Assembly: GCA_040007095.1 (NCBI GenBank) | Contig: JBDTVS010000058.1 | Location: 15,719-79,718, forward strand | Source of the DNA: Acidobacteriota bacterium | GTDB lineage: Bacteria; Acidobacteriota; Vicinamibacteria; Vicinamibacterales; CAVVIG01 | Direction: 5' to 3' | Length of the DNA: 64,000 bases | Shown: piece by piece, positions 24,519-43,518 of the stretch | Position numbering within the stretch: the stretch's first letter is position 1 | Layout: every line of letters begins with the position of its first letter | The notes under the pieces: generated by a model | Told to the model about the DNA's origin: nothing | The model's input: only the letters and a program-made list of their open reading frames with translations | Databases searched by the model: none | Made by a program: the position numbers and the translations under genes

Positions 24519-24699
24519 TCGAGCGGGATTGGAGACAACGCTGCGCCGCGCAGCAGGGCGATCCGGTATCAGCGGAAGCCCACAATGCACGCGCGCGCGC
24601 GTTGCACTTGTGGCGTACATGAGCCCAGGGCCACGGGCCGGGAGATCGCAGTTGTCCGTACACCACCCGTACGCTACACTCGTGGTCGAGGAGGCTGCC

Positions 24700-30663: not shown

Positions 30664-30890
30664 TGAACCTCCCCCACAAACCGAGCAACTGGCCGTACAG
30701 CGACGTCAGCGGAGCAGTATGAATATCACCATTGCCGCGATCGGCGAAACCGTGGGGCCGTTTGCTCCTGATACACTCCTGCCCTACAGTGCGGCGCTAT
30801 AGTTCGGCCCTGCAGTTCGGCACTATGGTTCCTCACGCGGCCGAGTCGCGCGTGACCTGAACTCCGGTCGGCTCCCGTTGGAGGGTCTCG

Positions 30891-31706: not shown

Positions 31707-31741
31707 GAAGTACGGTGGGGTGCTTAATCAGGACAAGCTGC

Positions 31742-33772
31742 TCAAGAACCCACTGCGCTGCGGAGAGGTACGCGGCGCTCTCGATTGGTTCGTCGCGGCG
31801 TCGCCGCATGCCATCTGACTCCCAGCAGCGGAACGAAGACTGCGAGAGCGATGCCGGTCGCCACCGCCCATCCGTTCGACCGTGGCGACATCTCTGGCAT
31901 GGCGTGCGACGGAATCAGGTCTTCCCCGTCGTGACGGGTCCCATCGATGCCGATTAACGCCGAACCTTCGGGAACTGTTTCGAGCAGAACCGTCTTCTCC
32001 ACCGGCTGATAGCCGTACAGCTGCACCGAAACGGTCCAGCGGAGGCGGCCGGGCAAACATGGCGGCGCTGGTGTATTGCGGCCCAACGATCTCATTGCCG
32101 CGGCCGCCATTTGATCCCCGGTAGGTTGCCTCCCTTCCCTGATGGCCCGATCGTATTCGTCGGCGGGCGAAGGGCCGGAGGACGGCTGGGAACACCCGTT
32201 GGCGTACCGGGGCCCGTCGGCACGATGAATCGCGCTCCCCGCAGGTGGCTGAGCGGGGGGGGTGTAGAGCTGCAGTACACCCGGCTCCGGCACCCTCTCC
32301 CATTTCAGAAAGCTCTCAATATCCGCGACTTTGGGGCCGAGCCCGATCGAACCTTTTGGTCTTTCGACCACGCGTTCGATTGTGTAGATTCCAATCGCAT
32401 TGCCCCCTCGGCCCGACCTTTCCTCCATACGCTCAGTCGGGGAGGGTTCGTCGCTGATCTGATCGAGCTCGATGACTGGTAGCGGCGACAAGTACGATTT
32501 GTCTTCATAGTCCCGCATGTAGGTAAGGCCCTCAATCGTATAGGTGGCCTTGAGATGCAGCTTCACCGACCCGCCACTGCCCGAAGTCCAGCTGACGACA
32601 GGTTGGTTGAAGATCACCGAGGGCGCCTCGACCTTGATTTGCATCGGGTCGGAGCGCCTCGGGGAGTCGATGATACGACCGGTGCTCTCATACTCGTACG
32701 GGTAGAAGGTCGGCGGCATGAGCGCGTCGCTGCCGAGCTTCTTGGGCCATCGCGGGAACTGGCCGGACGCTTCGTCTTCGATCATCGCTTCGTCGATCAC
32801 CGTCACCGATCTCCCCGGCGAGGGTACAGCGGTCTTGCCGGGCGGGCCACCGACTGGAAACTCGCTCGGCCCCACTGAAACGTTGGTCGGCGATTGCCAC
32901 GGGACCCAGGAACCAATGATCGGATTTCTGTCGATCAACCGGGTGAGGACGACGAGAATCCGGTCCATGTCCGGCACTCTCGTGTTCTGCGGCAGGATTG
33001 GATCCTGGTGCTTCGTGTGAAACGAGCTCAGTGACGCCTGAAACTCCTGCAGCGCCTTGATGCTATCCCGGGTCGCGCACAAGGCTTTGGCTCTGGAGAA
33101 ACTGAGATGATCCGGCAGGTGAGCGGCCGCCGGATGACCACGAAAGGTGTCCCACTCGAAGTGCGCGTAGTAATCCTGAACGAAGTGCATCAACGCGCCG
33201 GGATTTCCCTGGTCCACGGCGAGGCCCATCAGCCACTTCTTCTGCTTCGCCCGCGCCTCCTCCACCTTGGCGGCAACCTCCGCGGTACATGGCCCTCCTG
33301 CGAACTTGTACTTGTTCGGCGTGTTCTCAGGGGTCAGCGGCGGCTTCATGATGGTCGCGAGGCACTGGTGCTCGGGATTCTCGACCTGCCAGCTCCAACT
33401 GCAGCCGTTCACCAGCGTCTCGTCGGCAAACGCGTGAAGGTCGCGCCATTTGTAGGCGAGCGCAGGCTTGCTGCTGCCGAACAGGCCGAGCACCGCGTGG
33501 TTGGCGCCAAATATGCCATCCCACGTCGTCGCCTCCATCGGCGATGTCACGGGCCACCAGTCGAGCGCATAGGCACCGCTCGCAATTTGGAACGCCTGGC
33601 GTTTCGTGAACCCCACTTGAAGGGCCAGGTAGTAGGTCCATGCGTAGTGGTCGAACTCGTATGCACGGACCGGCTGGACCGACACGTCCGAGCAGAGGAA
33701 CGCAAGAAGTAAGAGGGCGCAGATGGCCGGCGAGCGCCTGCGCGACGGGGCACGTGTGATTGGGTTGATCAT
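31742..33772 (-). CDS. Type I membrane protein: signal peptide, large ectodomain with an HxxxD....H motif (possible zinc phospholipase C / P1-nuclease-like fold), C-terminal TM anchor and a 20-aa cytoplasmic tail
   Basis: 676 aa. Signal 'ICALLLLAFLCSDVSVQPVRA'. 'FDHYAWTYYLAL' and 'ALMHFVQDYYAHFEW' His/Asp motifs. The C-terminal helix VATGIALAVFVPLLGVRWHA is paralogous to the TM helix of the next gene. Confidence 0.65.
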   Translation of the reverse strand: MINPITRAPSRRRSPAICALLLLAFLCSDVSVQPVRAYEFDHYAWTYYLALQVGFTKRQAFQIASGAYALDWWPVTSPMEATTWDGIFGANHAVLGLFGSSKPALAYKWRDLHAFADETLVNGCSWSWQVENPEHQCLATIMKPPLTPENTPNKYKFAGGPCTAEVAAKVEEARAKQKKWLMGLAVDQGNPGALMHFVQDYYAHFEWDTFRGHPAAAHLPDHLSFSRAKALCATRDSIKALQEFQASLSSFHTKHQDPILPQNTRVPDMDRILVVLTRLIDRNPIIGSWVPWQSPTNVSVGPSEFPVGGPPGKTAVPSPGRSVTVIDEAMIEDEASGQFPRWPKKLGSDALMPPTFYPYEYESTGRIIDSPRRSDPMQIKVEAPSVIFNQPVVSWTSGSGGSVKLHLKATYTIEGLTYMRDYEDKSYLSPLPVIELDQISDEPSPTERMEERSGRGGNAIGIYTIERVVERPKGSIGLGPKVADIESFLKWERVPEPGVLQLYTPPAQPPAGSAIHRADGPRYANGCSQPSSGPSPADEYDRAIREGRQPTGDQMAAAAMRSLGRNTPAPPCLPGRLRWTVSVQLYGYQPVEKTVLLETVPEGSALIGIDGTRHDGEDLIPSHAMPEMSPRSNGWAVATGIALAVFVPLLGVRWHAATPRRTNRERRVPLRSAVGS

Positions 33773-33795
33773 GGGAGGTCGCCCGTTGCGTTGCT

Positions 33796-34788
33796 CTACG
33801 GGTCCGGTCGTAGTGACGGAGCCGGGGGCAGTCTCGCGTACTCAGCCTTCAATATCTCTGCGTGCCTTGCGGTCTCGGCCGGATCCAGACGGGGAACGGC
33901 CGCCTCATCTTCCGCCGAGATTCCCAAATAGCCCCGGCCACTTGCCCGGGTGGGCAACGGGCGCGAATCAGGCAAGCCGGACGATCCAGTCGATCCGGGA
34001 AGCGCGGATTCCCCGGAGCGCAGCGCATACCATCCGACCGCCAGAAGAGGAACGAGGACCGCGAGCGCGATACCGGTCGCCACACCCCGTCTGGTCGGCG
34101 GCAGCGACATCTTCGGGATCCAGCCCTGAACGCCTATCCCGCCCCAGGCCGGAGCACCTTGTATCTCTCCCCTGAGGAAGCCGAAGTCGATCGTGGTCCC
34201 GGGCGCCAGCTTGATCGTTTTTCCGGGTTCGACGCGGTGCGCGACACCGCCGGGAACCGTTGCCGACCAGGCGTGATCCGTCAGATTCTTGAGGCCGAGC
34301 AGTGCAGGGTCATTCGGGCGGCCGGCCACCTGCGCCGCCGGAGCGCCGGGGCGCCCACTCCGCATCCCCATGACATCCCGTGCGGTGAGCCTCCGCCCTG
34401 CCTTGAGGAGGATTCCCGATCCCGCCGGAGTGCTGAGGACGAAGCCGCTCTGCCCGTCTCGCACTGTTCCTGCGAGCGGACCGAAGTCGATCCGTAGACC
34501 GCTCTCGAGTTTCACGGTTTTCCCCGGCTCGATTTTCCTCCGTCCACCCTCAGGCGCTGGTGCCGACCAGGCATTGCGGCAGAGGTTCTTCAGTCCCAGA
34601 ATGCTGGGATTCGTGGGGTGGCCCGTGACCTCGGCAAATGCCTTGTCAGTTCCGTGGCTCCCCAACTCGACGAACTCCTCCGCGGCGACGGTCGTTCCAT
34701 CCCGAACCTTCAGGGCGCGGCCCGAAGAGAGCCGTATGATGAAAACCTCTTGCGCGCTCACGGCAATCAGGCTATCACGATGCTCCAT
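33796..34788 (-). CDS. Membrane protein with two tandem FHA-like modules (cytoplasmic), one TM helix and a ~75-aa external tail
   Basis: 330 aa. Two ~95-aa repeats each contain ..AEV.GHP.(N/D)P..LGLKNL....W.A..P.G....(I/V)EPGKT(V/I)KL..G..IDFG. These are homologous to the kinase C-terminus. TM helix VATGIALAVLVPLLAVGWYA. Confidence 0.7.
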   Translation of the reverse strand: MEHRDSLIAVSAQEVFIIRLSSGRALKVRDGTTVAAEEFVELGSHGTDKAFAEVTGHPTNPSILGLKNLCRNAWSAPAPEGGRRKIEPGKTVKLESGLRIDFGPLAGTVRDGQSGFVLSTPAGSGILLKAGRRLTARDVMGMRSGRPGAPAAQVAGRPNDPALLGLKNLTDHAWSATVPGGVAHRVEPGKTIKLAPGTTIDFGFLRGEIQGAPAWGGIGVQGWIPKMSLPPTRRGVATGIALAVLVPLLAVGWYALRSGESALPGSTGSSGLPDSRPLPTRASGRGYLGISAEDEAAVPRLDPAETARHAEILKAEYARLPPAPSLRPDP

Positions 34789-34933
34789 CGGCGAACCGCT
34801 CCGGAGGGGACCTAATCAAATCGTCTCCGCCGACAGGGATGGGCTCGCGTCGGGAAGGCGCGACCGAGAGGTGGTCGTGAAAAGGCCTGGATACCGGTTA
34901 CAATCCGCCCGCTCCCGCATTCGGGATGTGACA

Positions 34934-35116
34934 ATGCCGCAGTGTCCCTTCTGTCAATCCGATCTGGGCTCTGGACGCGCCGGGCGCTCTTGCCCGGCCT
35001 GCGGCAAGCCGCTTCCTCAGACGTGGAGTGCAGTGACACCGCGGGTCGGGCAGTTGACGGTGGGCGGTGTGATCGTCACGCTCCTCTGGGTCGTGCTGGT
35101 CAATTCGCGCTGCTGA
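34934..35116 (+). CDS. Zinc-ribbon plus single-TM mini-protein
   Basis: 60 aa from an internal ATG: MPQCPFCQSDL....RSCPACGKPL (CxxC..CxxC), followed by the hydrophobic helix LTVGGVIVTLLWVVLV. It is divergent from the 330-aa gene and sits 35 nt upstream of the next FHA-like gene. Confidence 0.5.
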   Translation: MPQCPFCQSDLGSGRAGRSCPACGKPLPQTWSAVTPRVGQLTVGGVIVTLLWVVLVNSRC

Positions 35117-35150
35117 GCGCGGGACGGATCGAACGTCATGGGGACACAGC

Positions 35151-36257
35151 ATGAGCACGGCTGATACGTTCACTTTGCGACTGAAGTCAGGTCGCACGCT
35201 ATCGTTGCGAGATGGCGTCACGCTGAAAGCCGACGACCTCCTCGGGGTCACATCCACACGTGCTGACGGCGTGGTCGCCGAGGTTTCGCCGAGCCCGCAC
35301 GATCCCAGCGTGCTCGGCCTGATGAACCAGACGCGACACGCGTGGTCCGCCACACTGTCCGACGGCAGTCTGCGCCAGGTCGACCCCGGCAAGAGCATCA
35401 AGTTGGCGGACGGCACGGCGCTCACGATCGCGTCGACGCGCGTCGCTGTCCGACAACGCACTGGCGGATTCGTCCTGAGCATCCCGACCGTTGGCGATAT
35501 TCCACTCAAGAGCGGGACGCGGCTGAAAGCCGGCGAACTGCTCGGTGTGGCCGCGAGCCCCACGGGCGTGGTAGCGGAGGTCGGACGCCACCCGAAAGAT
35601 CCTGCCATTCTGGGCCTCAGGAATCTCACGAATCTTCCCTGGTCCGCCCGCCTCCCGGACGGAAGCCAACGACGCGTCGAACCCGGCAAGAGCATCTCCC
35701 TGACAGGCAGAACGACCATCACCTTCAGCCACGTCGAAGCAACGATCGAAGAACCGATAGCCACGCCCGGGCGGCGATCGCTGGGCCTCAAACCGTACTT
35801 CGATGAGCAGCGGGCGCAGTCGTCGGCGGCACATCCGGTGCGCTCCACGCCGCGGCCGGAGCAGCGCTCGGGATTTGACTGGCAGAATTTTCGACCGGAC
35901 CTTCTGAGCAGCGCGGTCGCCATCGGCTTCGCCGTGCTGACGCGGAGCGTCGTGCCCGTCATCATCTCGATGCTATTGGTCGGCGGCATGCGTCATTTCG
36001 GCCAGGGGATCGATCGAGCGCTCTCGCCGTTCTGGCGACTTCGGGACGTCATCCCTCGACCGCTGCGGATGGGTCTCGGCTGGATCGTTCCAATAGGTGT
36101 GGGCTATTTGATGACGGCATCCCCGACGCTGCAGAACGGGATTGCGCGTTTGCCATTCGGCGCGCCCGAGATCTCCGTCTTCACTGCCACCGCAGTGATC
36201 GCCGCGCCGCTCGCATATTTCCTCGTCCGTGAACCTCAGCGGGGAGCCACGTCGTGA
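35151..36257 (+). CDS. Membrane protein with two tandem FHA-like modules and a C-terminal multi-TM region
   Basis: 368 aa. The repeats contain ..VVAEV...P.DP..LGL.N.T...WSA.L.DGS.R.V(D/E)PGKSI.L. The C-terminal ~130 aa hold about three hydrophobic helices. The stop overlaps the next gene's start by 4 nt. Confidence 0.7.
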   Translation: MSTADTFTLRLKSGRTLSLRDGVTLKADDLLGVTSTRADGVVAEVSPSPHDPSVLGLMNQTRHAWSATLSDGSLRQVDPGKSIKLADGTALTIASTRVAVRQRTGGFVLSIPTVGDIPLKSGTRLKAGELLGVAASPTGVVAEVGRHPKDPAILGLRNLTNLPWSARLPDGSQRRVEPGKSISLTGRTTITFSHVEATIEEPIATPGRRSLGLKPYFDEQRAQSSAAHPVRSTPRPEQRSGFDWQNFRPDLLSSAVAIGFAVLTRSVVPVIISMLLVGGMRHFGQGIDRALSPFWRLRDVIPRPLRMGLGWIVPIGVGYLMTASPTLQNGIARLPFGAPEISVFTATAVIAAPLAYFLVREPQRGATS

Positions 36258-37591
36258 GCCCGTCGCTGGGTAAGGATGGTGAGACGTTGAGGCATCGGGT
36301 GCGCGGGCCGTGGGCCCTGGTCGTGAGTCTCTTTCTTCTGGCGCTGACGCCGCGTGTCTTTGCCGACTCGTGCTTCGAGCGGGCCACGTCGATTCGTCAA
36401 GGAAGCATTCCGTACGGCCAGCCCGATGGCGATTGTGATGCGGGCGGAAAAGCAGGTGCGTACTTCTCGTGGTTTGCCGCGGGCGCGGCAGCTGCAGCCG
36501 CGGCACGGGCGGCGGCTCGCCGGACGCAACAGGGCAAGGCCGAGCGGCCCAACCATTGGCCCACCAACCTGACAGGACCGACGGCGTTCTGCGAACTGGG
36601 CACGGCGATCGCCCAGGAGGACTATCTGCAGACGAAAGTGCCGACGCAGGGAGGGGGCGAGCGCGACCTCAACGATATCGAGAAGACGCTGTACCTCTAC
36701 GAGCGGATGCGGGAAGCCGCGAGGGTGTATGGCCTGAAGGCGCCGACCGAGGGATTCGATTTCATGGACAAATACAAGGTCGGGTTGAGCCGTCGCGATA
36801 CGCTCGTCTCCTGGGGCGTCATCGCCGGTGCCACCCTGCTCGGCGGTTTGGCCGGGAGCGCGGTTTTTGGTCCTGCCGGGTACCTGATCGGTCCCTCACT
36901 CGGGGGACTGGCTGGCACACTCGCGGGAATACTTGGCACGGTCACCGGGGCCTTGGCTTCCGGAGCCGCAGCGCTCCTGTCGGGTTTCGCGACCAACGTG
37001 GGCGATGCGGCTGACCGGTCGATGGACCGGTTCACCGACAAGCAGATTCAGCTCGGTGGCACCGGAATCGGCGCGGTTATCGGCGGCCTGGTCGGAACCC
37101 TGGGGGGTCCTCCCGGCGTGGCGGTCGGGATCGCGGGTGGCGGAATTCTGGGCACCATGCTGTCGCGGCTGTTCACCGGTGGCGACCAGGAGGAGGTCGA
37201 CAGTCTCAAAATGAGCGGAGTCGGCCACTGTGGAGAGTGGTCGCTGGCCTTCAGCAGGCTGCTCAAATGCGCCGGCGTGGCGCAGCAGAAGGTGGCCTAT
37301 GCCGATCACAAACCGGATTCTGTTGCGAGCTACGGCTTTGGCGGGACCGACACGACCGTGATCGTCAAGGACGGCGACGGCAAGAATCGGGTCTTCGACA
37401 TCTTTCGAGAGATGTATGAATCGAAGAACAAAAATCTTCCGTCCGACAAGAGCGTCTTCTCGAATCTGCCAATGACCGCCGGGGATCTTCAACCTTACGA
37501 CTCGATCGACCAGACGCCCAGGGTCTGGCAAAAGGCGATGAAAAAGGAGTTCATCAAGGACAACCAGGGCAACGTGCTCTGGCAGCAGTAA
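36254..37591 (+). CDS. Exported glycine-zipper membrane protein with a C-terminal transglutaminase/papain-like Cys motif (candidate effector)
   Basis: 445 aa. Signal peptide (..LLALTPRVFA). Two long GxxxG-rich blocks (GGLAGSAVFGPAGYLIGPSLGGLAGTLAGILGTVTGALASGAA; GGTGIGAVIGGLVGTLGGPPGVAVGIAGGGILG). 'GVGHCGEWSLAFSRLLKCAGV' resembles the transglutaminase-core Cys motif seen in the genes at 2142 and 5836. Confidence 0.6.
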   Translation: MSPSLGKDGETLRHRVRGPWALVVSLFLLALTPRVFADSCFERATSIRQGSIPYGQPDGDCDAGGKAGAYFSWFAAGAAAAAAARAAARRTQQGKAERPNHWPTNLTGPTAFCELGTAIAQEDYLQTKVPTQGGGERDLNDIEKTLYLYERMREAARVYGLKAPTEGFDFMDKYKVGLSRRDTLVSWGVIAGATLLGGLAGSAVFGPAGYLIGPSLGGLAGTLAGILGTVTGALASGAAALLSGFATNVGDAADRSMDRFTDKQIQLGGTGIGAVIGGLVGTLGGPPGVAVGIAGGGILGTMLSRLFTGGDQEEVDSLKMSGVGHCGEWSLAFSRLLKCAGVAQQKVAYADHKPDSVASYGFGGTDTTVIVKDGDGKNRVFDIFREMYESKNKNLPSDKSVFSNLPMTAGDLQPYDSIDQTPRVWQKAMKKEFIKDNQGNVLWQQ

Positions 37592-37672
37592 GCGACTGCC
37601 GGAGTCCGATGATATGCTTTCCGCCATTCTGCAATACGCCGCAGCAGTCATTTCGCCGGGAGAAGTCCGCGC

Positions 37673-38284
37673 GTGACAGCCGCGATCTGGCGCCGACCCT
37701 CAATACTTCTGGCGTTCTTCGCCGCGTCGACCTCGGGGCTGGCCATCCTGCTGTACGCCGCCCGCCTGATGACGCTGACCTACGCCGTCTGGATCCTGGC
37801 GCCGCTGACTGCCCTGTTGTTCATCGCGCTGCTGGCGGCGACGGGGCTGAACCCGGAAGACCAGCTGGTTGACCGTCTGCGCGGCGGGCTGATCGCGGGC
37901 TTCATTGGCTTGGTGGCGTACGACATCGTTCGGCTCTTGATCCTGTTGGCGGGAGTGCCCTTCAATCCGTTTCGGCCGATCGAGGTGTACGGACTCCTCA
38001 TCCTTGACCGCTTCGATGACACACTGCTGACGAAGTCGGTTGGCTGGGCCTTTCACATATGGAATGGCCTGTCGTTCGCAGCGATGTATACGCTGGCGGT
38101 CGGACGGGGGCGCGTGCTGTGGGGACTGCTCTGGGGGCTGACGCTGGAGGTGGCGATGCTCTCGAGCTACCCGTCCATCTTTCAGCTATCGGTGAACCGG
38201 CCGTTCGTGATTGTGAGCCTCACGGGACATTTCTTTTACGGCCTCGCCATTGGCATCGCGGCGCGCCGGTTCGTTCGATCCTGA
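37673..38284 (+). CDS. Polytopic membrane protein of unknown function
   Basis: 203 aa with about six hydrophobic helices. No recognisable motif. Confidence 0.6.
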   Translation: MTAAIWRRPSILLAFFAASTSGLAILLYAARLMTLTYAVWILAPLTALLFIALLAATGLNPEDQLVDRLRGGLIAGFIGLVAYDIVRLLILLAGVPFNPFRPIEVYGLLILDRFDDTLLTKSVGWAFHIWNGLSFAAMYTLAVGRGRVLWGLLWGLTLEVAMLSSYPSIFQLSVNRPFVIVSLTGHFFYGLAIGIAARRFVRS

Positions 38285-38695
38285 TTAGAGCTTCCCGTCC
38301 AGAGGCCTTTGGGCTCGACGCGCACCACCCACACCGATAGGCTCGGCACGTCAGTCAGCAAGAGCCGGACAGCGTCGACGATCCCGCGGCCGCGCTGGGT
38401 CATCTTCACGAGTGTGCGTGACTTTCGCGTCTTGGAATTCAGATTGACCTCGGCGGGACTCGACCCTGCTCCACCACAGCCGCCGCTGTTTGCAAACCCC
38501 GCCACCATTCTCGTTGCGCCTTCTTGGATCGGATGCGTATGATACACGTGCCAAATCAAGCATTCGCGTTGAACCCTCGACGCAGGCCGAAGCCGCAGAG
38601 GTAAAGGCCCAGCTTCACAACCGCCGCGCTGCATGGCGGCGACGTAGTCGTTCGAAGGGTTTCCCGCTCACGATCCGGATTGAGAGGACCTGACT

Positions 38696-39388
38696 ATGGC
38701 TCTGAGACCAGGCGGCGAACTAGCGACCCGGCCACTCCATTTCATCTGGATCTGCGATTGTTCCGGATCGATGGCGGTCGACGGCAAGATCCAGTCGTTG
38801 AACAACGCGATCCGCGAAGCCGTTCCGCACATGCAGAAGATCGCCGACGAGAATCCCAACGCTCAGGTGCTGGTGCGTTCGTTGATGTTCTCGACCGGCG
38901 CCAGTTGGCATGTGTCGCAACCGACGCCGATCGCCAGCTTCACCTGGTCTGATTTGACCGCCGACGGCGTCACCGACATGGGTCAGGCACTCTCGTCGGT
39001 CGCGAAGGAACTGCGCATTCCACCGATGACCGATCGCGCGCTGCCACCGGTGCTGGTGCTGATTTCCGACGGCCGTCCCACCGACGACTGGAACGCGGGG
39101 CTCAAGGAACTGATGTCGCTTCCCTGGGGAAAGAAATCGGTGCGCGTCGCGATTGCGATTGGCGACGATGCGGACCTCGACGTGCTGCAGGAATTTATCG
39201 GTCCAACCGGTCCGGCGCCGCTGCAGGCGAACAATCCAGAAGCGCTCGTCGGGTACATCAGGTGGGTATCGACGGTCGTGCTGCAATCGGTGTCGCAGCC
39301 CGCGAGCCAGGTCGATCCGAACGCCGCACTGATCCCCGAGGCGCCAAGCGCAGACGATCTCGGCGCGGCCGCGGCCACCATCTGGTAA
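38696..39388 (+). CDS. vWA domain protein (TerY-like)
   Basis: 230 aa. MIDAS motif 'FIWICDCSGSM', '..VTDMGQAL..' and '..VLVLISDGRPTD..'. No signal or TM segment. Its TAA stop overlaps the PP2C ATG (TAATG). Confidence 0.85.
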   Translation: MALRPGGELATRPLHFIWICDCSGSMAVDGKIQSLNNAIREAVPHMQKIADENPNAQVLVRSLMFSTGASWHVSQPTPIASFTWSDLTADGVTDMGQALSSVAKELRIPPMTDRALPPVLVLISDGRPTDDWNAGLKELMSLPWGKKSVRVAIAIGDDADLDVLQEFIGPTGPAPLQANNPEALVGYIRWVSTVVLQSVSQPASQVDPNAALIPEAPSADDLGAAAATIW

Positions 39389-40467
39389 TGAACGGCGGCG
39401 TTTCAGCGTGGCAGCTGATCGGTGAGTGCGTTCGTGGCGCGTCCCACGTGCGGAACGTTTCGCCGAATCAGGATGCGATTGCGTGGCGAGTCGATTCGAC
39501 GACGAACCGTGCGGCCATCATGGCCGTGTCCGACGGTCACGGCAGCGCGAAGTGCTTTCGAAGCGATGCGGGGTCCAGGCTCGCCGTGAACGCGGCCCTT
39601 CGCATCCTGGAAAGTTTTGCATGCAATCCCGCGCCGGTGGATCTGACGGCAGTGGATGGTCAGGCGGCGGATGGTACCGCGGCGGATGCCAAGGCGAACG
39701 ATGGCATCGAAGCCGGGCGCAATGGGCCTGATGGGAACGGGGCCGCGCCCGATCGCCACTCCCGACTGGCTCAGAACATCGTCCTCGAATGGCAGAAGGA
39801 TGTCGACGCGGCGCTAGAGGAGCATCCGCTTTCAACCGAGGAGATGGAGTCGCTCGAGGCGCGAGAGGGCGCCGCGGCTCGTCAGGCCGTGGACCGCAAT
39901 CCTCGCCTGGCTTACGGCGCCACGCTGCTTGCCGCGGTGATTACCGATGCCTACATCCTCTACCTTCAGCTCGGCGACGGCGACATCGTCACCGTCTCGG
40001 ATACGGGGGCCGCGAGCCGGCCGCTCGAACACGATCAGCGGTTGTTCGCGAACGAGACGACGTCGCTCTGCGCCCGAGACGCCTGGCGCGAGATTCGCGT
40101 TCGCTGCGACGAACCGGCCGAACCGGCGCCCGCGTTGATCCTGCTGTCAACCGACGGCTACGCCAATTCCTTCAGAACCGATGCGGGATTTCTGGCGGTG
40201 GGATCGGATCTGCTCGAGATCATCCGCGCCGAAGGGCTCGACAGCGTCGGCGGTCATCTGGAGGGCTGGCTGACCGAGACGTCCCAGGGCGGCAGCGGCG
40301 ATGACATTACACTTGGCATTCTGTGCCGGATGGACGCGGTCGCGTCGTCCAGTAGGTCGTCCAGTAGGTCGTCCAGTAGGTCGTCCAGCAGGTCGTCCAG
40401 CAGATCGCCCGGCGACGACCCGGCGATCCCGCCCGGACCCGCGGACACAACCGAAGTGGCCCGTTGA
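39388..40467 (+). CDS. PP2C-family Ser/Thr protein phosphatase with a C-terminal (SSSR)5 tail
   Basis: Start chosen at MNGGVSAWQLIGECVRGASHVRN..NQDA. Motifs '..AVSDGHGS..' and '..LLSTDGY..' match PP2C metal-binding signatures. Confidence 0.85.
   Translation: MNGGVSAWQLIGECVRGASHVRNVSPNQDAIAWRVDSTTNRAAIMAVSDGHGSAKCFRSDAGSRLAVNAALRILESFACNPAPVDLTAVDGQAADGTAADAKANDGIEAGRNGPDGNGAAPDRHSRLAQNIVLEWQKDVDAALEEHPLSTEEMESLEAREGAAARQAVDRNPRLAYGATLLAAVITDAYILYLQLGDGDIVTVSDTGAASRPLEHDQRLFANETTSLCARDAWREIRVRCDEPAEPAPALILLSTDGYANSFRTDAGFLAVGSDLLEIIRAEGLDSVGGHLEGWLTETSQGGSGDDITLGILCRMDAVASSSRSSSRSSSRSSSRSSSRSPGDDPAIPPGPADTTEVAR
40344..40403. repeat. In-frame 12-bp tandem repeat x5 encoding (SSSR)5
   Basis: gtcgtccagtag x3 followed by gtcgtccagcag x2. 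Confidence 0.85.
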
Positions 40468-41786
40468 ACCAGATCCTCGAGACCAATCAGATCGTACGGA
40501 CCAGCCCTTCGGCCCTGCAGTGCCGGGTTCTGCGGCTGCTCGGGGGCGGCGGACAGGGCGAAGTCTATCTGGCCGATCTCCACGGCAAGCTGGTCGCCTT
40601 GAAGTGGTATCGGCCGATCGCGGCCACGCCACGGCAGCAGACCGGACTCGAAGAGCTCGTGAGGAAGGGGTCTCCAGACGAGCGGTTTCTCTGGCCGCTC
40701 GAGCTGGCGTTCGACCCCCAGACTCCCGGATTCGGGTACGTGATGCTGCTGCGCGAGCCGCGCTTCAAGAGCCTCTACGATCTGATGAAGTGCCGGATCG
40801 CGCCGAGCTTTCGCACGCTCGCCACGGTCGGCCTGTCGCTGTCGGACGCGTTCCTCCGCTTGCATTCCCAGGGCCTCTGCTACCGGGACATCAATTTCGG
40901 CAACGTGTTCTTCGATCCCGATACCGGCGAGGTTCTGATTTGCGATAACGACAACGTCGCGGTTGACGGAGAAGACGAGGGCGTGCTCGGCACGCCGCGT
41001 TTCATGGCGCCCGAGATCGTGCGCGGCGACGCCAGGCCGACGTCGCAATCCGATTTGTTCTCGCTGGCCGTGCTGCTCTTCTACATCTTCATGGTGCACC
41101 ACCCGCTCGAAGGTGCCCAGGAAGCGTCGATCAAGGCGCTCGATGCGCCGGCGATGAAGTGGCTGTACGGCACCAAGCCGGTATTCATCTTCGATCCCGT
41201 CGATCGATGCAATGCGCCGGTGCCCGGACTGCACGACAACGCGGTGATCTACTGGTCGATCTACCCGCAGTTTTTCCGCGACCTCTTCACCAAGGCGTTC
41301 ACCGACGGGATCCGTGATCCGCGCAACGGCAGGGTGCGCGAGAGTGAATGGCGCGCCACGATGGTCCGGCTGCGGGACTCGATCGTTTATTGTCCCGCCT
41401 GCAATGAGCAGAACTTCTACGACGGCGACGCGCTGAAAGCGTCCGGCGGCAAGGCACCAGCATGCTGGGCCTGTCAGAAGGAGGTTCGCCTGCCGCCGCG
41501 AATCCGGATCGGCAAGAGCACAATCGTGATGCTCAACCACGACACGCGCCTGTTCCCGCACCATGTGGACGACCGCTGCGGCTACGATTTCTCCGAGCCG
41601 ATCGCGGAGGTGGCGAAGCATCCGACCGACGCGCGGATCTGGGGGCTCAAGAACGTCTCGAAGACACAATGGACCGGCCAGATCGCCGACGGCACGACCA
41701 GGGATGTGCCGCCAGGACGCAGCGTAACGCTGGCGGCCGGGACACGGATCAATTTCGGTCAGCGAGAGGGCGAGATTCGGGTGTGA
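40464..41786 (+). CDS. Ser/Thr protein kinase with a C-terminal zinc ribbon and an FHA-like module
   Basis: 440 aa. The TTG start overlaps the PP2C stop. Gly-loop LGGGGQGEVY, VALK lysine, catalytic YRDINFGN, DND (DFG-equivalent), GTPRFMAPE. Then CPAC...CWAC, then a module containing ..AEVAKHPTDARIWGLKNVSKTQW......V.PGRSVTL..G..INFG. Confidence 0.9.
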   Translation: MNQILETNQIVRTSPSALQCRVLRLLGGGGQGEVYLADLHGKLVALKWYRPIAATPRQQTGLEELVRKGSPDERFLWPLELAFDPQTPGFGYVMLLREPRFKSLYDLMKCRIAPSFRTLATVGLSLSDAFLRLHSQGLCYRDINFGNVFFDPDTGEVLICDNDNVAVDGEDEGVLGTPRFMAPEIVRGDARPTSQSDLFSLAVLLFYIFMVHHPLEGAQEASIKALDAPAMKWLYGTKPVFIFDPVDRCNAPVPGLHDNAVIYWSIYPQFFRDLFTKAFTDGIRDPRNGRVRESEWRATMVRLRDSIVYCPACNEQNFYDGDALKASGGKAPACWACQKEVRLPPRIRIGKSTIVMLNHDTRLFPHHVDDRCGYDFSEPIAEVAKHPTDARIWGLKNVSKTQWTGQIADGTTRDVPPGRSVTLAAGTRINFGQREGEIRV

Positions 41787-41941
41787 GCCTGATGCCGTTG
41801 GGAAATTCCGTAACGGTTTGTGGCCTGAGACCAGGGCGCTCCAGGCAAGCGACGAGCAACGTGAGCAGGCGATAGACAGCGGACCAGAATGTTTATGTGA
41901 TTCGTTTCGGTTCCCACACCGAACGGTTTTGCGGATCAGCC

Positions 41942-42805
41942 ATGGATAATCAGCCACGACAGAGCCTTCGCGACCTCGTTGCCAAGCACGGCAAGAACGT
42001 CTGTGACGACCCACGGCGATGCGAAGCGTTGTTGCGGGACGCCTGCGGGGCGCACAAACGCGAACTGAACATCCTGATGAACGCGCTCCGCGAGCGCGTG
42101 CCGACGGACCTGCAGACGGGCGATCCCAGACTGCCGCAGGACATCCTGTTGTCGCGGCTCACGACCCGGCTGACGGACCTCGGGCTGGCCGAGGATGCGG
42201 CGCGATGGTCGGTGGATTCATGGGCCCTCGCGCTCGGCGTGATCGCGAAGCCGCGTCCCGATGCGCCGGCGGCGGCGCCATCCCAAGGTCCGACCGGGAC
42301 AACGCAGCGCACAGCGACGCCGAAGCCGCCGAAGCCGACGACACCGGTGGTCGCGGCGAAACCCGTGGTCGCGGTGAAGCGTCCGTCGAGCGCATCACCT
42401 TCGTCGAGTGGATCATCGTCGCCGGGCACTGGCACCTTCGCAAGCCGCTCGACGCCGTCGACGCCCACCGTCTCCTCCGGACCCAGTCGTGCGGGCGCGT
42501 CACCGCCGCCGGCAAGCAACCCCGCGAAGAGCGGTGGCTCTTCCGGATCGGGCGGAGCCCTCCAAGGCTTGTGGGAGTTTGGAGGGTTCCTCCTCTCGAT
42601 TCCGCTGCTGTTCGGATCGGCCATCGTTGTCGCCGGAGCGATGTTCTGGACGCTCTCTCAGATGGGATATGAGTACAAGCAGCTGTCGTCCACCGCTCAA
42701 GCCCTGATAGGCATCCTTTTCCTCGGATTGACGGTCCTCGTGATGGGGGCCATCGTAGCCCTATTCGAAAAGCTCAAGGAGCTGTTTACGCAGTCTCCGA
42801 AGTAG
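41942..42805 (+). CDS. Membrane protein: N-terminal helical domain, long Ser/Thr/Pro-rich linker, two C-terminal TM helices
   Basis: Start chosen at MDNQPRQSLRDLVAKHGKNVCDDPRRCEALLRDACGAHKRELNILMNALRERVP. A ~110-aa S/T/P/A low-complexity stretch follows, then two hydrophobic helices. Confidence 0.6.
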   Translation: MDNQPRQSLRDLVAKHGKNVCDDPRRCEALLRDACGAHKRELNILMNALRERVPTDLQTGDPRLPQDILLSRLTTRLTDLGLAEDAARWSVDSWALALGVIAKPRPDAPAAAPSQGPTGTTQRTATPKPPKPTTPVVAAKPVVAVKRPSSASPSSSGSSSPGTGTFASRSTPSTPTVSSGPSRAGASPPPASNPAKSGGSSGSGGALQGLWEFGGFLLSIPLLFGSAIVVAGAMFWTLSQMGYEYKQLSSTAQALIGILFLGLTVLVMGAIVALFEKLKELFTQSPK

Positions 42806-43068
42806 GGACGTTCGAACGACCTCTCTGCTTTCATAGCCGGCCGGAATCGAACGAAAGACTGAGCCGGGATTCCACGTGCCATTGGTGCCGTCGTAGGGTT
42901 CGAAGACGGGCGCTGCCGTGTCTTTGTAGATGATGCAGCACGATGCGGCCGGGCTGACGGGGCCGACCCACGGACATGCCCACGCGCCCTCCGACGCATC
43001 CTCGGTCCCGTGGTTGGCGTGCCGGCACGAGCCGCAGGTGTCAGCCGCGACGTTGTGGGTCAACGTTC

Positions 43069-43306
43069 ATGCCTTCCGGAAATTCAAGCGCGAGCATGAC
43101 CAAAAAATAAGTCGCTTTGCGAACAGCTCGGCGCCGCGGGAAACCGCTGCTCCGGGTTGTGGATACAGCAGGCGCAGCTCCGCGAGCTGCGCCGGACTTG
43201 GCCCTTCGTGCGCGCTTTCCCGTCTGTCGCAAGCGTCGCGGCGCTCGCAACGTTCGCTCTCGCGACCCATTTTCCGGTCATTTCGTCAGTGCAGTAATTT
43301 CCGAAA
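43069..43306 (+). repeat. F1 repeat family, full copy C
   Basis: atgccttccggaaattc..catgaccaaaaaataagtcgc..[core, apex ggcgcagctccgcgagctgcgcc]..gcgacccattttccggtcat..aatttccgaaa. It lies 213 bp upstream of cpsB. Confidence 0.75.
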
Positions 43307-43518
43307 GGCCTGCTCATTATCACCGCGTTCGGCCACTTCGCTGTGCGCCTGGCCTGAATCGGCAGCAGCGCGGGCTGGACATCGTATGCTGTACGAGTGC
43401 CAGCACAGAGCAGGAACACCACTTTGCGCGACGCTCTCAAGGTTCGGTCCGCGGTCGATTTTCGGCCAGTGTGTCCAAAGGAATCTAACAAAGCCTCATA
43501 GGTACGGGAAGGATTGAG

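What the first reader, a model, noticed from the sequence alone, without database searches (positions are those of the whole stretch)
31742..42805. Eleven-gene membrane signalling or conflict-type island built around a vWA / PP2C / Ser-Thr-kinase triad
A translationally coupled triad lies at 38696-41786: vWA, then PP2C (stop/start TAATG), then kinase (TTG start overlapping the PP2C TGA). Comparative genomics has named this arrangement the TerY-phosphorylation triad; the E. coli yegL-yegK-yegI genes are of this type. The unusual part is the surrounding gene set.
- Two membrane proteins each carry two copies of the kinase's own C-terminal module.
- A type I membrane protein shares its TM anchor with one of those two proteins.
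- A zinc-ribbon/TM mini-protein is present.
- An exported glycine-zipper protein carries a transglutaminase-like Cys motif.
- A six-helix membrane protein is present.
- Another membrane protein has a long Ser/Thr/Pro-rich linker, which is an obvious phospho-acceptor.
This reads as one phospho-relay. The kinase and phosphatase would set the phosphorylation state of S/T-rich tails, the FHA-like modules would read it, and membrane proteins would execute the response. I do not know of a described system with this full composition.
Basis: partly seen in the sequence, partly recalled or inferred. Interest (0 to 1): 0.85.

Follow-up and report, generated by a model that had tools for sequence, protein, structure and literature searches.

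The report
Kinase switch with FHA-like membrane partners
An Acidobacteriota genome carries a known type of three-gene phosphorylation switch (vWA protein, PP2C phosphatase, Ser/Thr kinase), here extended by membrane proteins that repeat the kinase's own FHA-like tail domain; these extras recur beside the switch in other bacteria, so this is probably one larger, undescribed membrane-directed signalling or defence system.

Summary
I find ten real genes at 31742-42805, not eleven.

- **Core:** a translationally coupled vWA/PP2C/Ser-Thr-kinase triad sits at 38696-41786.
- **Shared module:** the kinase's C-terminal ~95-aa module occurs twice in each of two neighbouring membrane proteins.
- **Fold:** AlphaFold2 (pLDDT 94) plus Foldseek show the module has an FHA fold. 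No Pfam FHA model detects it, and the canonical phosphothreonine-binding motifs are not evident.
- **Kinase-centred neighbourhoods:** in 80 genome loci holding the closest kinases, only vWA, PP2C, the kinase and a fourth partner are conserved. That partner is the N-terminal seven-helix domain of the 287-aa downstream protein. It occurs in about 70 loci, carries many different C-termini, and has no PDB match. None of the other flanking genes occurs there.
- **Reverse test:** of eight contexts of tandem-module proteins, six (the window included) lie within about 5 kb of a triad or its vWA gene. Two cassettes recur: tandem-module protein → 676-aa-like exported protein, and tandem-module/4-TM protein → DUF6789 → glycine-rich exported protein.

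Verdict: a rare expanded variant of the TerY-P-type triad, most likely a phosphorylation switch docked to membrane partners through FHA-like modules. The biological role (defence or envelope signalling) is unresolved. It is a new variant of a known kind, of moderate to high interest.

The parts
31742..33772 (-). g1: 676-aa type I membrane protein (signal peptide, large extracytoplasmic part, C-terminal TM anchor). It is the downstream partner of g2.
   Evidence: Hydrophobic segments lie at aa 14-32 and 634-652. Homologues follow g2-like genes in L085/L086 (43% over 453 aa) and L100 (29% over 459 aa). The orthologues give sub-threshold DUF6765 matches. There is no Pfam, NCBIfam, PADLOC or PDB match for g1 itself.
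33796..34788 (-). g2: 330-aa protein with two cytoplasmic FHA-like modules (34459-34749 and 34159-34449), one TM helix and a short outer tail.
   Evidence: The module HMM scores 2.9e-41 and 1.8e-40. BLASTP to the kinase C-terminus gives E 2e-12 and 8e-12. The TM is at aa 235-253. Orthologues are P0124 (41%) and P0129 (46%).
34934..35116 (+). g3: 60-aa zinc-ribbon (CxxC...CxxC) plus single-TM mini-protein, immediately upstream of g4.
   Evidence: Read from the sequence. The TM is at aa 38-56. Homologues lie upstream of g4-like genes in L082 (47% over 47 aa, E 3e-7) and L089. Zn_ribbon_3 is only sub-threshold (E 0.089).
35151..36257 (+). g4: 368-aa protein with two FHA-like modules (35163-35453 and 35463-35750), a linker, and a C-terminal multi-TM domain.
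   Evidence: The module HMM scores 4.2e-41 and 2.5e-39. Full-length orthologues are P0127 (40%), P0145 (35%) and P0133 (32%). The C-terminal TM domain also occurs alone, upstream of DUF6789 genes, in L090 and L092-L095.
36254..37591 (+). g5: 445-aa exported protein with a glycine-rich hydrophobic middle and a C-terminal domain carrying an invariant GxCGExSxAF motif. Its start overlaps the g4 stop by 4 nt.
   Evidence: Orthologues occur in L083/L084 (54% and 36%) and L099 (28% over 371 aa). The alignment is A10. One orthologue gives sub-threshold Gly-zipper_Omp and Transglut_core matches. PDB sequence searches returned only glycine-rich or low-complexity matches with no usable structural assignment (best E 0.0032 to a Na+/H+ exchanger over the Gly-rich stretch).
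37673..38284 (+). g6: 203-aa polytopic membrane protein of family DUF6789.
   Evidence: Pfam PF20587 scores E 3.7e-6, 27.5 bits against a cut-off of 27.1. Orthologues directly follow g4-like genes in L082 (69%), L083 (56%) and L099, and occur in ten metagenome contigs.
38696..39388 (+). g7: TerY/YegL-like stand-alone vWA protein with a DxSxS MIDAS motif.
   Evidence: Pfam VWA E 3.1e-4 (sub-threshold) and PADLOC TerY E 0.0049. It is 30% identical to E. coli YegL (E 7e-9). Homologues occur in 61 of 81 kinase loci.
39388..40467 (+). g8: PP2C phosphatase (PP2C_2) with a C-terminal (SSRS)n tail encoded by a 12-bp tandem repeat at 40344-40400.
   Evidence: PF13672 E 3.5e-42. The TAATG start/stop overlap is, the tandem repeat and the tail sequence. 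Homologues occur in 66 of 81 loci.
40464..41786 (+). g9: Ser/Thr kinase with a kinase domain, a four-Cys zinc ribbon (41391-41474) and a C-terminal FHA-like module (41490-41783).
   Evidence: Pkinase E 3.4e-16. The family is 63-69% identical over the full length across several phyla. K47, D142, N147, D161/D163, C310, C313, C334 and C337 are invariant. The module model has pLDDT 94.3, and its top Foldseek PDB hits are almost all FHA domains.
41942..42805 (+). g10: 287-aa protein with a conserved N-terminal seven-helix domain (41942-42244), a Ser/Thr/Pro-rich linker and a C-terminal TM hairpin.
   Evidence: The N-domain is found in 70 of 81 kinase loci, often in two copies. It is fused to FGE-sulfatase, DUF1566, GerE, MCPsignal, RDD, WD40, LRR and TM C-termini. 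The AF2 model has pLDDT 94.2 and no significant PDB or BFVD match. The linker is 48% S/T/P and the TMs are at aa 231-249 and 269-287 of the 302-aa ORF.
34789..34933 (.). Divergent intergenic region between g2 (-) and g3 (+), presumably holding the promoters of both arms.
   Evidence: Inferred from gene arrangement. One sigma-70-like match lies at 34877-34904(+), but one match is no more than chance expects (1 found, 1.9 expected).

Best explanation
This is an expanded member of the TerY-P-type phosphorylation triad (stand-alone vWA protein, PP2C phosphatase, Ser/Thr kinase). It belongs to the widespread kinase family whose C-terminus is a zinc ribbon followed by a divergent FHA-fold module.

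**Shown**
- The three core genes are translationally coupled.
- The kinase and phosphatase keep their catalytic motifs.
- The kinase family almost always travels with one or more proteins carrying a conserved seven-helix N-domain (g10 here) fused to variable C-termini.
- In a minority of lineages, including this one, the triad is flanked by membrane proteins with two cytoplasmic copies of the kinase's FHA-fold module.
- Each of these proteins is paired with its own extracytoplasmic or membrane partner: g2 with g1, and g3-g4 with DUF6789 g6 and the glycine-rich exported g5.

**Inferred**
- The kinase and PP2C set the phosphorylation state of Ser/Thr-rich segments. Candidates are the g10 linker, the (SSRS)n tail of the PP2C, the vWA protein and the kinase itself.
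- The FHA-fold modules, on the kinase and in tandem on the membrane proteins, dock onto those sites, or onto one shared partner.
- The soluble switch is thereby coupled to membrane proteins that either sense an envelope event or carry out a membrane response.
- The closest experimentally studied logic is the archaeal ArnA (zinc finger + FHA) / ArnB (vWA) pair, controlled by the ArnC/D kinases and PP2A.
- The biological role is most likely a stress or conflict (defence-type) response at the envelope. The data do not separate this from ordinary envelope signalling.
For: **Triad identity and coupling**

**Kinase family**
- 5501 relatives score below 1e-10, at 63-69% full-length identity across Acidobacteriota, Chloroflexota, cyanobacteria and proteobacteria.
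- Catalytic residues and zinc-ribbon cysteines are invariant.

**Module**
- It has an FHA fold: pLDDT 94.3; the top 50 PDB hits are almost all FHA domains, most at probability 0.95-1.00; best TM 0.68.
- It is found in 1218 protein clusters, 28 of them with E below 1e-30, essentially the tandem-copy proteins.

**Conserved fourth partner**
- The g10 N-domain occurs in 70 of 81 loci. In ORF clustering it ranks with the three triad genes as the only conserved real-gene families (kinase 82 loci, g10 family 72, PP2C 68, vWA 62; the next real family has 11).
- Its C-termini are variable.

**Reciprocal neighbourhoods of tandem-module proteins**
- L099: g4-like, g6-like, g5-like, vWA, PP2C, kinase, g10-like, in nearly the window's order.
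- L083: triad plus g10-like, followed by two tandem-module/DUF6789 cassettes and a g5-like gene.
- L100: g2-like, g1-like, vWA, PP2C, kinase, g10-like.
- L101: g2-like beside the triad.
- L087: g4-like divergent from a vWA gene 64% identical to g7.

**Fusions and precedent**
- The module is fused to other membrane machines, which fits a docking role. Examples are canonical FHA + PrsW protease + module, tandem modules + PrsW, and TraG/VirD4 + tandem modules.
- ArnA/ArnB is the experimental precedent (PMC6509490).
- Related TerY-P-like modules are reported as stand-alone anti-phage systems (PMC10542128).
Against: - None of g1-g6 occurs in the 80 loci with the most similar kinases, so the core works without them.
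- One tandem-module locus (L085) has no triad within 10 kb, and another (L082) has none on the side that could be read.
- The module has no Pfam FHA match in any of 25 copies, even at E up to 10. No GR/SxxH/NG signature is evident. Phosphopeptide binding is therefore unproven.
- No PADLOC defence model matches beyond generic kinase similarity and a weak TerY hit.
- The flanks here are ordinary genes (solute-binding protein, CpsB, O-antigen ligase), not a defence island.
- The contexts examined were the best-scoring relatives of g2 and g4, so they are a small and biased sample.
- No expression, interaction or phosphorylation data exist.
Confidence: 0.5

Rival explanations
1. Ordinary envelope or physiological signalling, not defence. 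The triad is a regulatory switch whose outputs are transcription, regulated intramembrane proteolysis or envelope remodelling. The tandem-module proteins act as membrane sensors that feed the kinase.
For: - The g10 family includes GerE/LuxR HTH and MCP-signal C-termini.
- The module is fused to PrsW-type intramembrane proteases.
- The window's neighbours are exopolysaccharide genes (CpsB, Wzy_C) and a solute-binding protein.
- There is no PADLOC or PHROGs signal.
- The ArnA/ArnB precedent is a regulatory module, not an immune one (PMC6509490).
Against: - The distribution is patchy across phyla, with kinases 55-69% identical and a star-like tree, which suggests horizontal spread.
- The interchangeable C-termini and accessory cassettes resemble conflict systems.
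- A serine recombinase lies next to the L100 island.
- Related TerY-P-like triads are reported to protect against phage (PMC10542128).
Confidence: 0.3
2. The flanking cassettes are functionally independent membrane systems. They share a mobile domain with the kinase and sit nearby by shared ancestry or hitch-hiking. On this reading, only triad plus g10 is 'the system'.
For: - g1-g6 occur in 0 of the 80 closest kinase loci.
- The g4 C-terminal-domain/DUF6789 pair exists without modules.
- L085 has g2-like and g1-like genes with no triad within 10 kb.
- Kinases of the extended islands do not form one clade.
Against: - Six of eight tandem-module contexts, the window included, lie within about 5 kb of a triad or its vWA gene, although the kinases there are only 54-63% identical to one another.
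By inference, chance adjacency is very unlikely.
- Gene order is nearly the same in L099 and the window.
- Sharing a rare domain specifically with the adjacent kinase argues for a functional link.
Confidence: 0.15
3. The FHA-fold module is not a phospho-reader. It could be a homotypic oligomerisation unit or a domain that binds another ligand, such as the vWA MIDAS face, a nucleic acid or a small molecule. The kinase and membrane proteins would then assemble through module-module or module-vWA contacts, independent of phosphorylation.
For: - Canonical FHA motifs are absent, and the module has its own invariant signature: P45, G52, L53, N55, W61, P75 and nearly invariant G68/G76.
- Some proteins carry a canonical FHA domain as well as the module, which suggests the two do different jobs.
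- The literature has described the equivalent region of related kinases as 'beta-strand-rich' or 'OB-fold', with a possible nucleic-acid role (PMC7159879 and PMC10542128).
Against: - The fold matches are almost all phosphopeptide-binding FHA domains.
- The module is always encoded with or next to a kinase/phosphatase pair and Ser/Thr-rich segments.
Confidence: 0.3

Closest known systems
TerY-P (TerY-phosphorylation) triad, including E. coli yegL-pphC-yegI
   Same: - Both have a stand-alone vWA protein, a PP2C and a Ser/Thr kinase encoded in that order.
- The kinase has a Cys-rich element after the catalytic domain.
- All three proteins show detectable pairwise homology.
- YegI and PphC are active enzymes (bioRxiv 10.1101/819920 and 10.1101/303594).
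   Different: - Identity is only 24-30%.
- YegI continues into two TM helices and a different C-terminal region, not an FHA-fold module.
- E. coli has yegJ inserted in the operon and no g10-type or tandem-module partners.
- Described TerY-P contexts are mostly DNA-processing or restriction genes (PMC4978471, PMC10542128), not membrane proteins.
Gao et al. 2020 TerY-P anti-phage system and CoCoNuT-linked TerY-P (as summarised in PMC10542128)
   Same: The three-gene logic is the same, and the kinase C-terminus carries an extra small domain after or in place of a zinc ribbon.
   Different: - PADLOC gives only a weak TerY hit (E 0.0049). The kinase's best PADLOC matches are generic kinase models such as mad6 and PD-T4-6.
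- The C-terminal domain here is FHA-fold, not the reported OB-fold.
- No nuclease or McrBC partners are present.
Sulfolobus ArnA (zinc finger + FHA) / ArnB (vWA) module with the ArnC/ArnD kinases and PP2A
   Same: A zinc-binding element followed by an FHA fold works with a vWA protein under kinase and phosphatase control. The FHA domain binds the phosphorylated C-terminus of the vWA protein (PMC6509490).
   Different: - Here the zinc ribbon and FHA fold are fused to the kinase itself, and the FHA fold is highly divergent.
- The phosphatase is PP2C, not PP2A.
- Homology to ArnA or ArnB was not tested.
- The output in Sulfolobus is archaellum gene expression.
Other bacterial vWA/STK/FHA/PP2C operons: Deinococcus DRA0331-0334 (bioRxiv 10.64898/2026.01.23.701218) and the PpkA/PppA/Fha1 pathway of the P. 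aeruginosa type VI secretion system (the latter from my own knowledge)
   Same: They combine the same four domain types to control a cellular machine through phospho-dependent FHA binding.
   Different: - Those systems use canonical FHA domains on separate soluble proteins.
- None has tandem kinase-type FHA-fold modules on membrane proteins or the seven-helix adaptor family.
Actinobacterial kinase + zinc ribbon + 'beta-strand-rich domain' linked to PP2C and vWA in GAP1-N2 GTPase neighbourhoods (Kaur et al. 2020, PMC7159879)
   Same: The kinase architecture and the triad appear to be the same.
   Different: The genomic partners differ (GTPase-centred systems there). As far as the text I could read goes, the beta-rich domain was not assigned to the FHA fold, and its tandem stand-alone membrane forms were not described.

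Membership tests
TerY-P triad | Stand-alone TerY/YegL-like vWA protein with a MIDAS motif | tested here: met
   A DxSxS motif (DCSGS) is present. Pfam VWA E 3.1e-4 is below the cut-off and PADLOC TerY E 0.0049 is weak. BLASTP to YegL gives 30% identity, E 7e-9. The feature is met, but the family scores are weak.
TerY-P triad | PP2C-family phosphatase encoded adjacent to the vWA gene | tested here: met
   PF13672 E 3.5e-42. The start codon overlaps the vWA stop (TAATG).
TerY-P triad | Eukaryote-type Ser/Thr kinase adjacent, with a zinc ribbon after the kinase domain | tested here: met
   Pkinase E 3.4e-16. K47, D142 and N147 are invariant, as are C310, C313, C334 and C337. The TTG start overlaps the PP2C stop.
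TerY-P anti-phage system (PADLOC model set) | Matches to the system's own profile HMMs for all components | tested here: not met
   There is only a weak TerY hit for g7, none for g8, and g9 matches generic kinase models.
TerY-P anti-phage system (PADLOC model set) | Protection against phage | not testable with these tools
   This needs heterologous expression and phage challenge.
FHA domain (PF00498) | Eleven-stranded beta-sandwich FHA fold | tested here: met
   The AF2 model has pLDDT 94.3 and ten strands. The Foldseek PDB top 50 are almost all FHA domains, most at probability 0.95-1.00, with TM up to 0.68 and best E 4.8e-3.
FHA domain (PF00498) | Sequence match to the family profile | tested here: not met
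   No FHA or Yop-YscD_cpl hit appears for g2, g4 or g9, or for any of 25 module copies at E up to 10.
FHA domain (PF00498) | Conserved phosphothreonine-binding residues (GR, SxxH, NG loops) | tested here: inconclusive
   These motifs are not recognisable in the alignments. The module conserves P45, G52, L53, N55, W61, G68, P75 and G76 instead. hhalign aligned only the C-terminal 28 columns. No structural superposition was available.
FHA domain (PF00498) | Binds phosphopeptides | not testable with these tools
   This needs a biochemical assay.
ArnA/ArnB-type module | A zinc-binding element and an FHA fold in one polypeptide, with a vWA partner encoded nearby | tested here: met
   The zinc ribbon (aa 310-337) and FHA fold (aa 343-440) are in g9, and the vWA gene g7 lies two genes upstream. 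This shows architectural similarity only.
ArnA/ArnB-type module | Sequence homology to ArnA or ArnB, and a phosphorylated C-terminal helical bundle on the vWA protein | not tested
   No ArnA or ArnB sequences were compared.
DUF6789 (g6) | Pfam profile match above the gathering score | tested here: met
   27.5 bits against 27.1, E 3.7e-6.
Transglutaminase-like/papain-like fold (g5 C-terminal domain) | Profile match and a Cys-His-Asp triad | tested here: inconclusive
   g5 itself has no Pfam hit. The L083 orthologue matches Transglut_core at E 0.003, below the cut-off. The Cys motif is invariant, but no His after it is conserved in three orthologues.

The most novel reading that the evidence does not exclude
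The kinase-type FHA-fold module may act as a shared docking code. It would plug a horizontally mobile vWA/PP2C/kinase switch into interchangeable membrane effectors or sensors: DUF6789 proteins with glycine-rich exported proteins, g1-type exported proteins, PrsW intramembrane proteases, and even a TraG/VirD4 coupling protein. The seven-helix g10 domain, which has no structural relative in the PDB, would recruit variable recognition domains. Together these would form a previously undescribed modular membrane-directed immune or stress system, spread across Acidobacteriota, Chloroflexota, cyanobacteria and proteobacteria.
Probability: 0.3. Interest if true: 0.75.

Novelty: new variant of a known kind. 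Interest (0 to 1): 0.6.

Why it matters
TerY-P-type triads are common in bacteria, and some protect against phage. What they sense and what they act on is largely unknown, including for the E. coli YegL/PphC/YegI genes.

This locus and its relatives offer three concrete handles:
- **A candidate reader domain.** The module is a divergent FHA fold that Pfam did not detect here, and it occurs in about 1200 protein clusters.
- **A conserved fourth component.** It carries a seven-helix domain with no solved structural relative, fused to swappable C-termini.
- **Candidate membrane partners.** These recur next to the triad.

If the docking model is right, it points to testable substrates and outputs for a whole family of bacterial Ser/Thr switches. 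It would also define two new domain families.

Tried and rejected
**Look-ups and scans that gave nothing**
- Exact-sequence look-ups of the window's own kinase, vWA and g4 found no record.
- The word-indexed homologue search with g4 found only itself and one kinase. The exhaustive profile search was needed to find relatives.
The scan with g4 + P0127 matched 69 stretches, none of them relatives.
- The context of P0135 (trypsin-like protease + tandem modules) was a 2.5-kb contig and uninformative.

**Searches that gave no assignment**
- PDB sequence searches with the module profile, g1, g5 and the g1 and g5 family profiles gave nothing usable. The only hits were glycine-rich or low-complexity matches.
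- Pfam at E up to 10 on 25 module copies gave no FHA hit.
I treat this as a lead only.
- NCBIfam, PADLOC and PHROGs gave no specific assignment for g1-g6 or g10.
- Foldseek of the g10 N-domain against the PDB and BFVD gave no significant match.
- Rfam found nothing at 30000-44000.
- Promoter and terminator scans were at or below chance.

**Readings considered and rejected**
- The flanking ORFs are not spurious high-GC ORFs, because orthologues exist.
- The island is not phage-derived. There are no specific PHROGs matches and no integrase in the window.
- The lineage-specific neighbour clusters in the 80 loci (a histidine kinase, an MreB-like protein, DUF4157-like proteins) are not system components. 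Each occurs in at most 11 related genomes.
- I could not obtain the original TerY-P paper (PMC4104200 is not held).

Full report
**1. What is there**

The window is a high-GC stretch (about 0.53-0.69 along the window, about 0.61-0.66 across the finding). It comes from an Acidobacteriota metagenome-assembled genome; the g4, kinase and g10 proteins are identical to NCBI records on a 151,624-bp contig.

Between 31742 and 42805 I find ten genes that are supported by homologues or family matches.

| Gene | Coordinates | Size / identity |
|---|---|---|
| g1 | 31742-33772 (-) | 676 aa |
| g2 | 33796-34788 (-) | 330 aa |
| g3 | 34934-35116 (+) | 60 aa |
| g4 | 35151-36257 (+) | 368 aa |
| g5 | 36254-37591 (+) | 445 aa |
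| g6 | 37673-38284 (+) | 203 aa |
| g7 | 38696-39388 (+) | vWA |
| g8 | 39388-40467 (+) | PP2C |
| g9 | 40464-41786 (+) | kinase, 440 aa |
| g10 | 41942-42805 (+) | 287 aa; NCBI's start, 15 codons inside the longest ORF |

I could not find the eleventh gene of the title.

The flanks look like ordinary genes:
- a solute-binding protein at 30891-31706;
- DUF4160 and PIN toxin-antitoxin-like genes at 28.3-29.5 kb;
- CpsB at 43519-44280;
- a Wzy_C protein at 46841-49561.

**2. The observation checks out**

*The triad.*
- Pfam gives PP2C_2 at 3.5e-42 and Pkinase at 3.4e-16.
- The VWA match is sub-threshold (E 3.1e-4), but the protein has an intact DxSxS motif.
- The vWA stop and PP2C start overlap as TAATG.
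- The kinase TTG start overlaps the PP2C TGA.
- More than a hundred homologues begin MNQIL at that position, which backs the TTG start.

*The shared module.*
- The kinase C-terminus (aa 343-440) is repeated twice in g2 and twice in g4, with BLASTP E 1e-9 to 2e-12.
- An HMM of the five copies scores each at about 1e-40.

*The other genes.*
- g1 and g2 share a TM anchor, 59% identical over 32 aa. Positive charges flank it on opposite sides, so the two helices would lie antiparallel in the membrane. This is my inference.
- g3 is a CxxC...CxxC zinc ribbon plus one TM.
- g6 is DUF6789, just above Pfam's cut-off.
- The g10 linker is 48% Ser/Thr/Pro.
- The PP2C ends in SSSRSSSRSSSRSSSRSSSRS, encoded by a 12-bp tandem repeat.
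- The transglutaminase-like reading of g5 is the weakest item. The GxCGExSxAF motif is invariant in three orthologues. One orthologue gives sub-threshold Transglut_core (E 0.003) and Gly-zipper_Omp (E 0.0027) matches. No histidine is conserved after the cysteine.

**3. The kinase family and its real core**

The kinase belongs to a very large and unusually conserved family.
- It has 5501 relatives below 1e-10.
- The best 120 are 63-69% identical over all 440 residues, apart from one 504-aa outlier at 50%.
- They come from Acidobacteriota, Chloroflexota, cyanobacteria and other phyla.
- The catalytic Lys and Asp, four zinc-ribbon cysteines and much of the C-terminal module are invariant.

I fetched 80 genome loci around the closest relatives, each with up to 10 kb on both sides. 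I then searched them with all ten window proteins and clustered all their ORFs. A module HMM was also run over the ORFs.
- Only four families are conserved: the kinase (82 loci counting the window), the g10-type family (72), PP2C (68) and vWA (62).
- The next real family occurs in only 11 loci and reflects local synteny.
- g1, g3, g5 and g6 have no homologue in any of the 80 loci.
- The g2/g4 hits there are almost all the kinase's own C-terminus. In L018, L070 and L071 the module HMM also finds other single-module proteins (section 6). tblastn additionally hits second sites in L012, L035, L043, L064 and L065, which the clustering places in the kinase family.

So the usual system is the triad plus one to three proteins that carry the g10 N-terminal domain.

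**4. The fourth component**

The g10 N-domain is about 100 aa, with the consensus PRQKL.ELI..YGRSLCDDPRRCEALL...WAVESWALALGV. It is fused to very different C-termini:
- TM hairpins, as in g10;
- FGE-sulfatase;
- DUF1566;
- GerE HTH;
- MCP-signal;
- RDD;
- beta-helix, WD40 and LRR repeats;
- zinc ribbons.

AlphaFold2 with a 30-sequence alignment predicts a seven-helix bundle at pLDDT 94.2. Foldseek finds nothing significant in the PDB (best E 3.4) or in BFVD (best E 1.2).

A constant head on variable tails is the pattern of an adaptor. It could recruit different sensing or output domains to a common core. That reading is an inference.

**5. The module is an FHA fold**

- AlphaFold2 on a 25-sequence alignment gives pLDDT 94.3 and an all-beta sandwich.
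- The top 50 Foldseek PDB hits are almost all FHA domains, including DgcB, MEK1, MDC1, APLF, GarA, FhaA and Ki67. Most have probability 0.95-1.00 and TM 0.5-0.68, but modest E-values (4.8e-3 or weaker).
- At the sequence level the module is invisible to Pfam's FHA models, even at E up to 10 in all 25 copies.
- The profile has no PDB sequence hit.
- The GR, SxxH and NG signatures of phosphothreonine-binding FHA domains are not recognisable. The module conserves P45, G52-L53-x-N55, W61, G68 and P75-G76 instead.

My conclusion is FHA fold yes, phosphopeptide reader plausible but unproven.

Earlier literature described this region of related kinases as a 'beta-strand-rich domain' (PMC7159879). In TerY-P-like defence modules it was called an OB-fold (PMC10542128).

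**6. Do the flanking genes belong?**

An exhaustive profile search found the module in 1218 protein clusters. Only 28 score below 1e-30, which are essentially the proteins with two copies.

Their architectures place the modules on the cytoplasmic side of membrane proteins:
- tandem modules + one TM + a variable tail (like g2);
- tandem modules + a 4-TM domain (like g4);
- exported domain + TM + tandem modules (for example a trypsin-like protease);
- tandem modules + PrsW intramembrane protease;
- TraG/VirD4 coupling protein + tandem modules;
- tandem modules + HEAT repeats.

In cyanobacterial triad loci there are also proteins with a canonical FHA domain, a PrsW protease and one module.

I looked up the genomic places of seven tandem-module proteins.

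| Locus (query protein) | Gene content |
|---|---|
| L099 (P0133) | g4-like, g6-like, g5-like (28% over 371 aa), vWA (72%), PP2C (46%), kinase (58-60%), g10-like (57%), all on one strand and in nearly the window's order |
| L083/L084 (P0145) | vWA, vWA, PP2C, kinase (56%), g10-like; then a 455-aa tandem-module protein with a DUF6789 paralogue; then g4-like, g6-like (56%), g5-like (54% and 36%) |
| L100 (P0129) | g2-like (46%), g1-like (29% over 459 aa), vWA (70%), PP2C (50%), kinase (63%), g10-like (52%) |
| L101-L103 (P0139) | g2-like, a 420-aa protein and a g10-like protein, convergent with vWA-PP2C-kinase |
| L087 (P0137) | g4-like, divergent from a vWA gene 64% identical to g7 |
| L085/L086 (P0124) | g2-like followed by g1-like (43% over 453 aa); no triad within 10 kb |
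| L082 (P0127) | g3-like (47%), g4-like (40%), g6-like (69%); the contig ends there and no triad lies upstream |
| L104 (P0135) | contig too short to say |

Counting the window, six of eight informative contexts put a tandem-module protein within about 5 kb of a triad or its vWA gene.

Chance adjacency is therefore very unlikely. This is an inference, not a formal test.

The kinases of these extended islands are only 54-63% identical to each other. They are scattered in a poorly resolved neighbour-joining tree. The cassettes are therefore either old and often lost, or they move between triads.

Two gene strings recur:
- g2 → g1;
- g3 → g4 → DUF6789 (g6), with or without g5.

The second string has a module-less ancestor-like form: a g4 C-terminal TM domain protein → DUF6789 → g5-like N-terminus. 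It occurs in several soil metagenome contigs.

**7. How it most likely works**

*Shown.*
- The gene content, the coupling, the domain folds and the co-occurrence.

*Inferred.*
- The kinase and PP2C form an on/off switch on Ser/Thr-rich segments. Candidates are the g10 linker, the PP2C's own (SSRS)n tail, the vWA protein and the kinase.
- The FHA-fold modules dock to those sites or to a shared partner. This ties the soluble triad to membrane proteins, whose partners face the periplasm or the membrane.

The best experimental precedent is Sulfolobus ArnA/ArnB. There a zinc-finger-FHA protein binds the phosphorylated C-terminus of a vWA protein, under the control of the ArnC/D kinases and PP2A (PMC6509490). 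Here the zinc ribbon and FHA fold are fused to the kinase, and the vWA gene lies two genes upstream.

The direction of information flow cannot be decided from sequence. The membrane proteins could be sensors feeding the kinase, or effectors released by it.

The biological role is also open.
- *For a conflict or defence role:*
  - the distribution across phyla is patchy;
  - the partners are swappable;
  - a recombinase lies next to one island;
  - related TerY-P-like triads are reported to act against phage.
- *For regulatory signalling:*
  - there is no PADLOC signal;
  - the g10 family includes HTH and MCP-type tails;
  - the module is fused to PrsW proteases;
  - the window's neighbours are ordinary genes.

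**8. Comparison with what is known**

The triad itself is known. It corresponds to TerY-P and to E. coli YegL/PphC/YegI, at 24-30% identity.

The kinase + zinc ribbon + beta-rich domain architecture has also been mentioned before.

I could not find three things described in the searchable literature:
- the assignment of that domain to the FHA fold;
- its tandem stand-alone membrane forms and their recurrent linkage to the triad;
- the seven-helix adaptor family as a near-constant fourth component.

The original TerY-P paper was not available to me. Part of this may therefore already be noted there.

I rate the finding a new variant of a known kind.

**9. Verdict**

The flanking genes do travel with triads, but only in a minority of lineages, and the phospho-reader role of the modules is not established.

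Interest is 0.6. A specialist would find the recurrent membrane cassettes and the two unannotated domain families useful, and they make the long-open question of triad inputs and outputs more testable. The system is still an elaboration of a known theme.

Noticed in passing
window 40344-40407: A 12-bp tandem repeat (4.8 copies, 97% matches) encodes the SSSR-repeat C-terminal tail of the PP2C phosphatase. It could be a length-variable, phosphorylatable tail.
   Followed up: partly
window 33796-34788 and 31742-33772 (TM segments, g2 aa 224-255 and g1 aa 625-656): The shared TM anchor of g1 and g2 (59% identity) is flanked by positive charges on opposite sides. The two helices would therefore insert in opposite orientations and could pair antiparallel.
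   Followed up: no
window 28304-28564 and 28994-29464: A DUF4160 gene (E 2.6e-16) and a weak PIN-domain gene (E 7.5e-4), each with a small adjacent ORF, look like toxin-antitoxin pairs. They lie about 2-3 kb left of the island.
   Followed up: partly
window 45835-46782: A 315-aa ORF has a Cys-rich N-terminus and then long low-complexity repeats (HQNDPHDN..., KDVRKD...). ORFs on the opposite strand overlap it. Its function is unknown.
   Followed up: no
window 11858-18685(-), 5836-9489(-), 22347-25415(-): Three very long ORFs of 2275, 1217 and 1022 aa. The 1022-aa ORF has no Pfam match at E 1e-3. The other two were not examined.
   Followed up: no
window 43519-44280 and 46841-49561: A CpsB/CapC-type tyrosine phosphatase and a Wzy_C (O-antigen ligase-like) protein lie to the right of the island and suggest an exopolysaccharide locus.
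   Followed up: partly
L018 8010-9635; L071 15252-16883 and 16880-18508: Cyanobacterial triad loci encode proteins that combine a canonical FHA domain, a PrsW intramembrane metalloprotease and one kinase-type module. In L071 there are two such genes in tandem; the second was identified only by its module match.
   Followed up: partly
L083 1-1294: An FHA-FHA-ABC-transporter fusion protein is encoded directly upstream of a duplicated vWA gene and the PP2C-kinase pair.
   Followed up: no
L100 38-1819: A large serine recombinase (Resolvase + Recombinase domains) lies next to the g2-like/g1-like/triad island, hinting that the island is mobile.
   Followed up: no
L009, L015, L021, L031, L046, L056, L060 (e.g. 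L015 2-601): Triad loci of Pyrinomonadaceae share neighbours with a motif that, from memory, resembles the DUF4157-type zincin motif (HELWHVLQQ). No family search was run on them. They appear lineage-specific.
   Followed up: no
L082 7646-8398 and L085 17839-18489: Peptidase_C70/C39_2 cysteine-protease genes, each followed by a 96-aa ORF, recur a few kb from tandem-module genes in two contigs.
   Followed up: no
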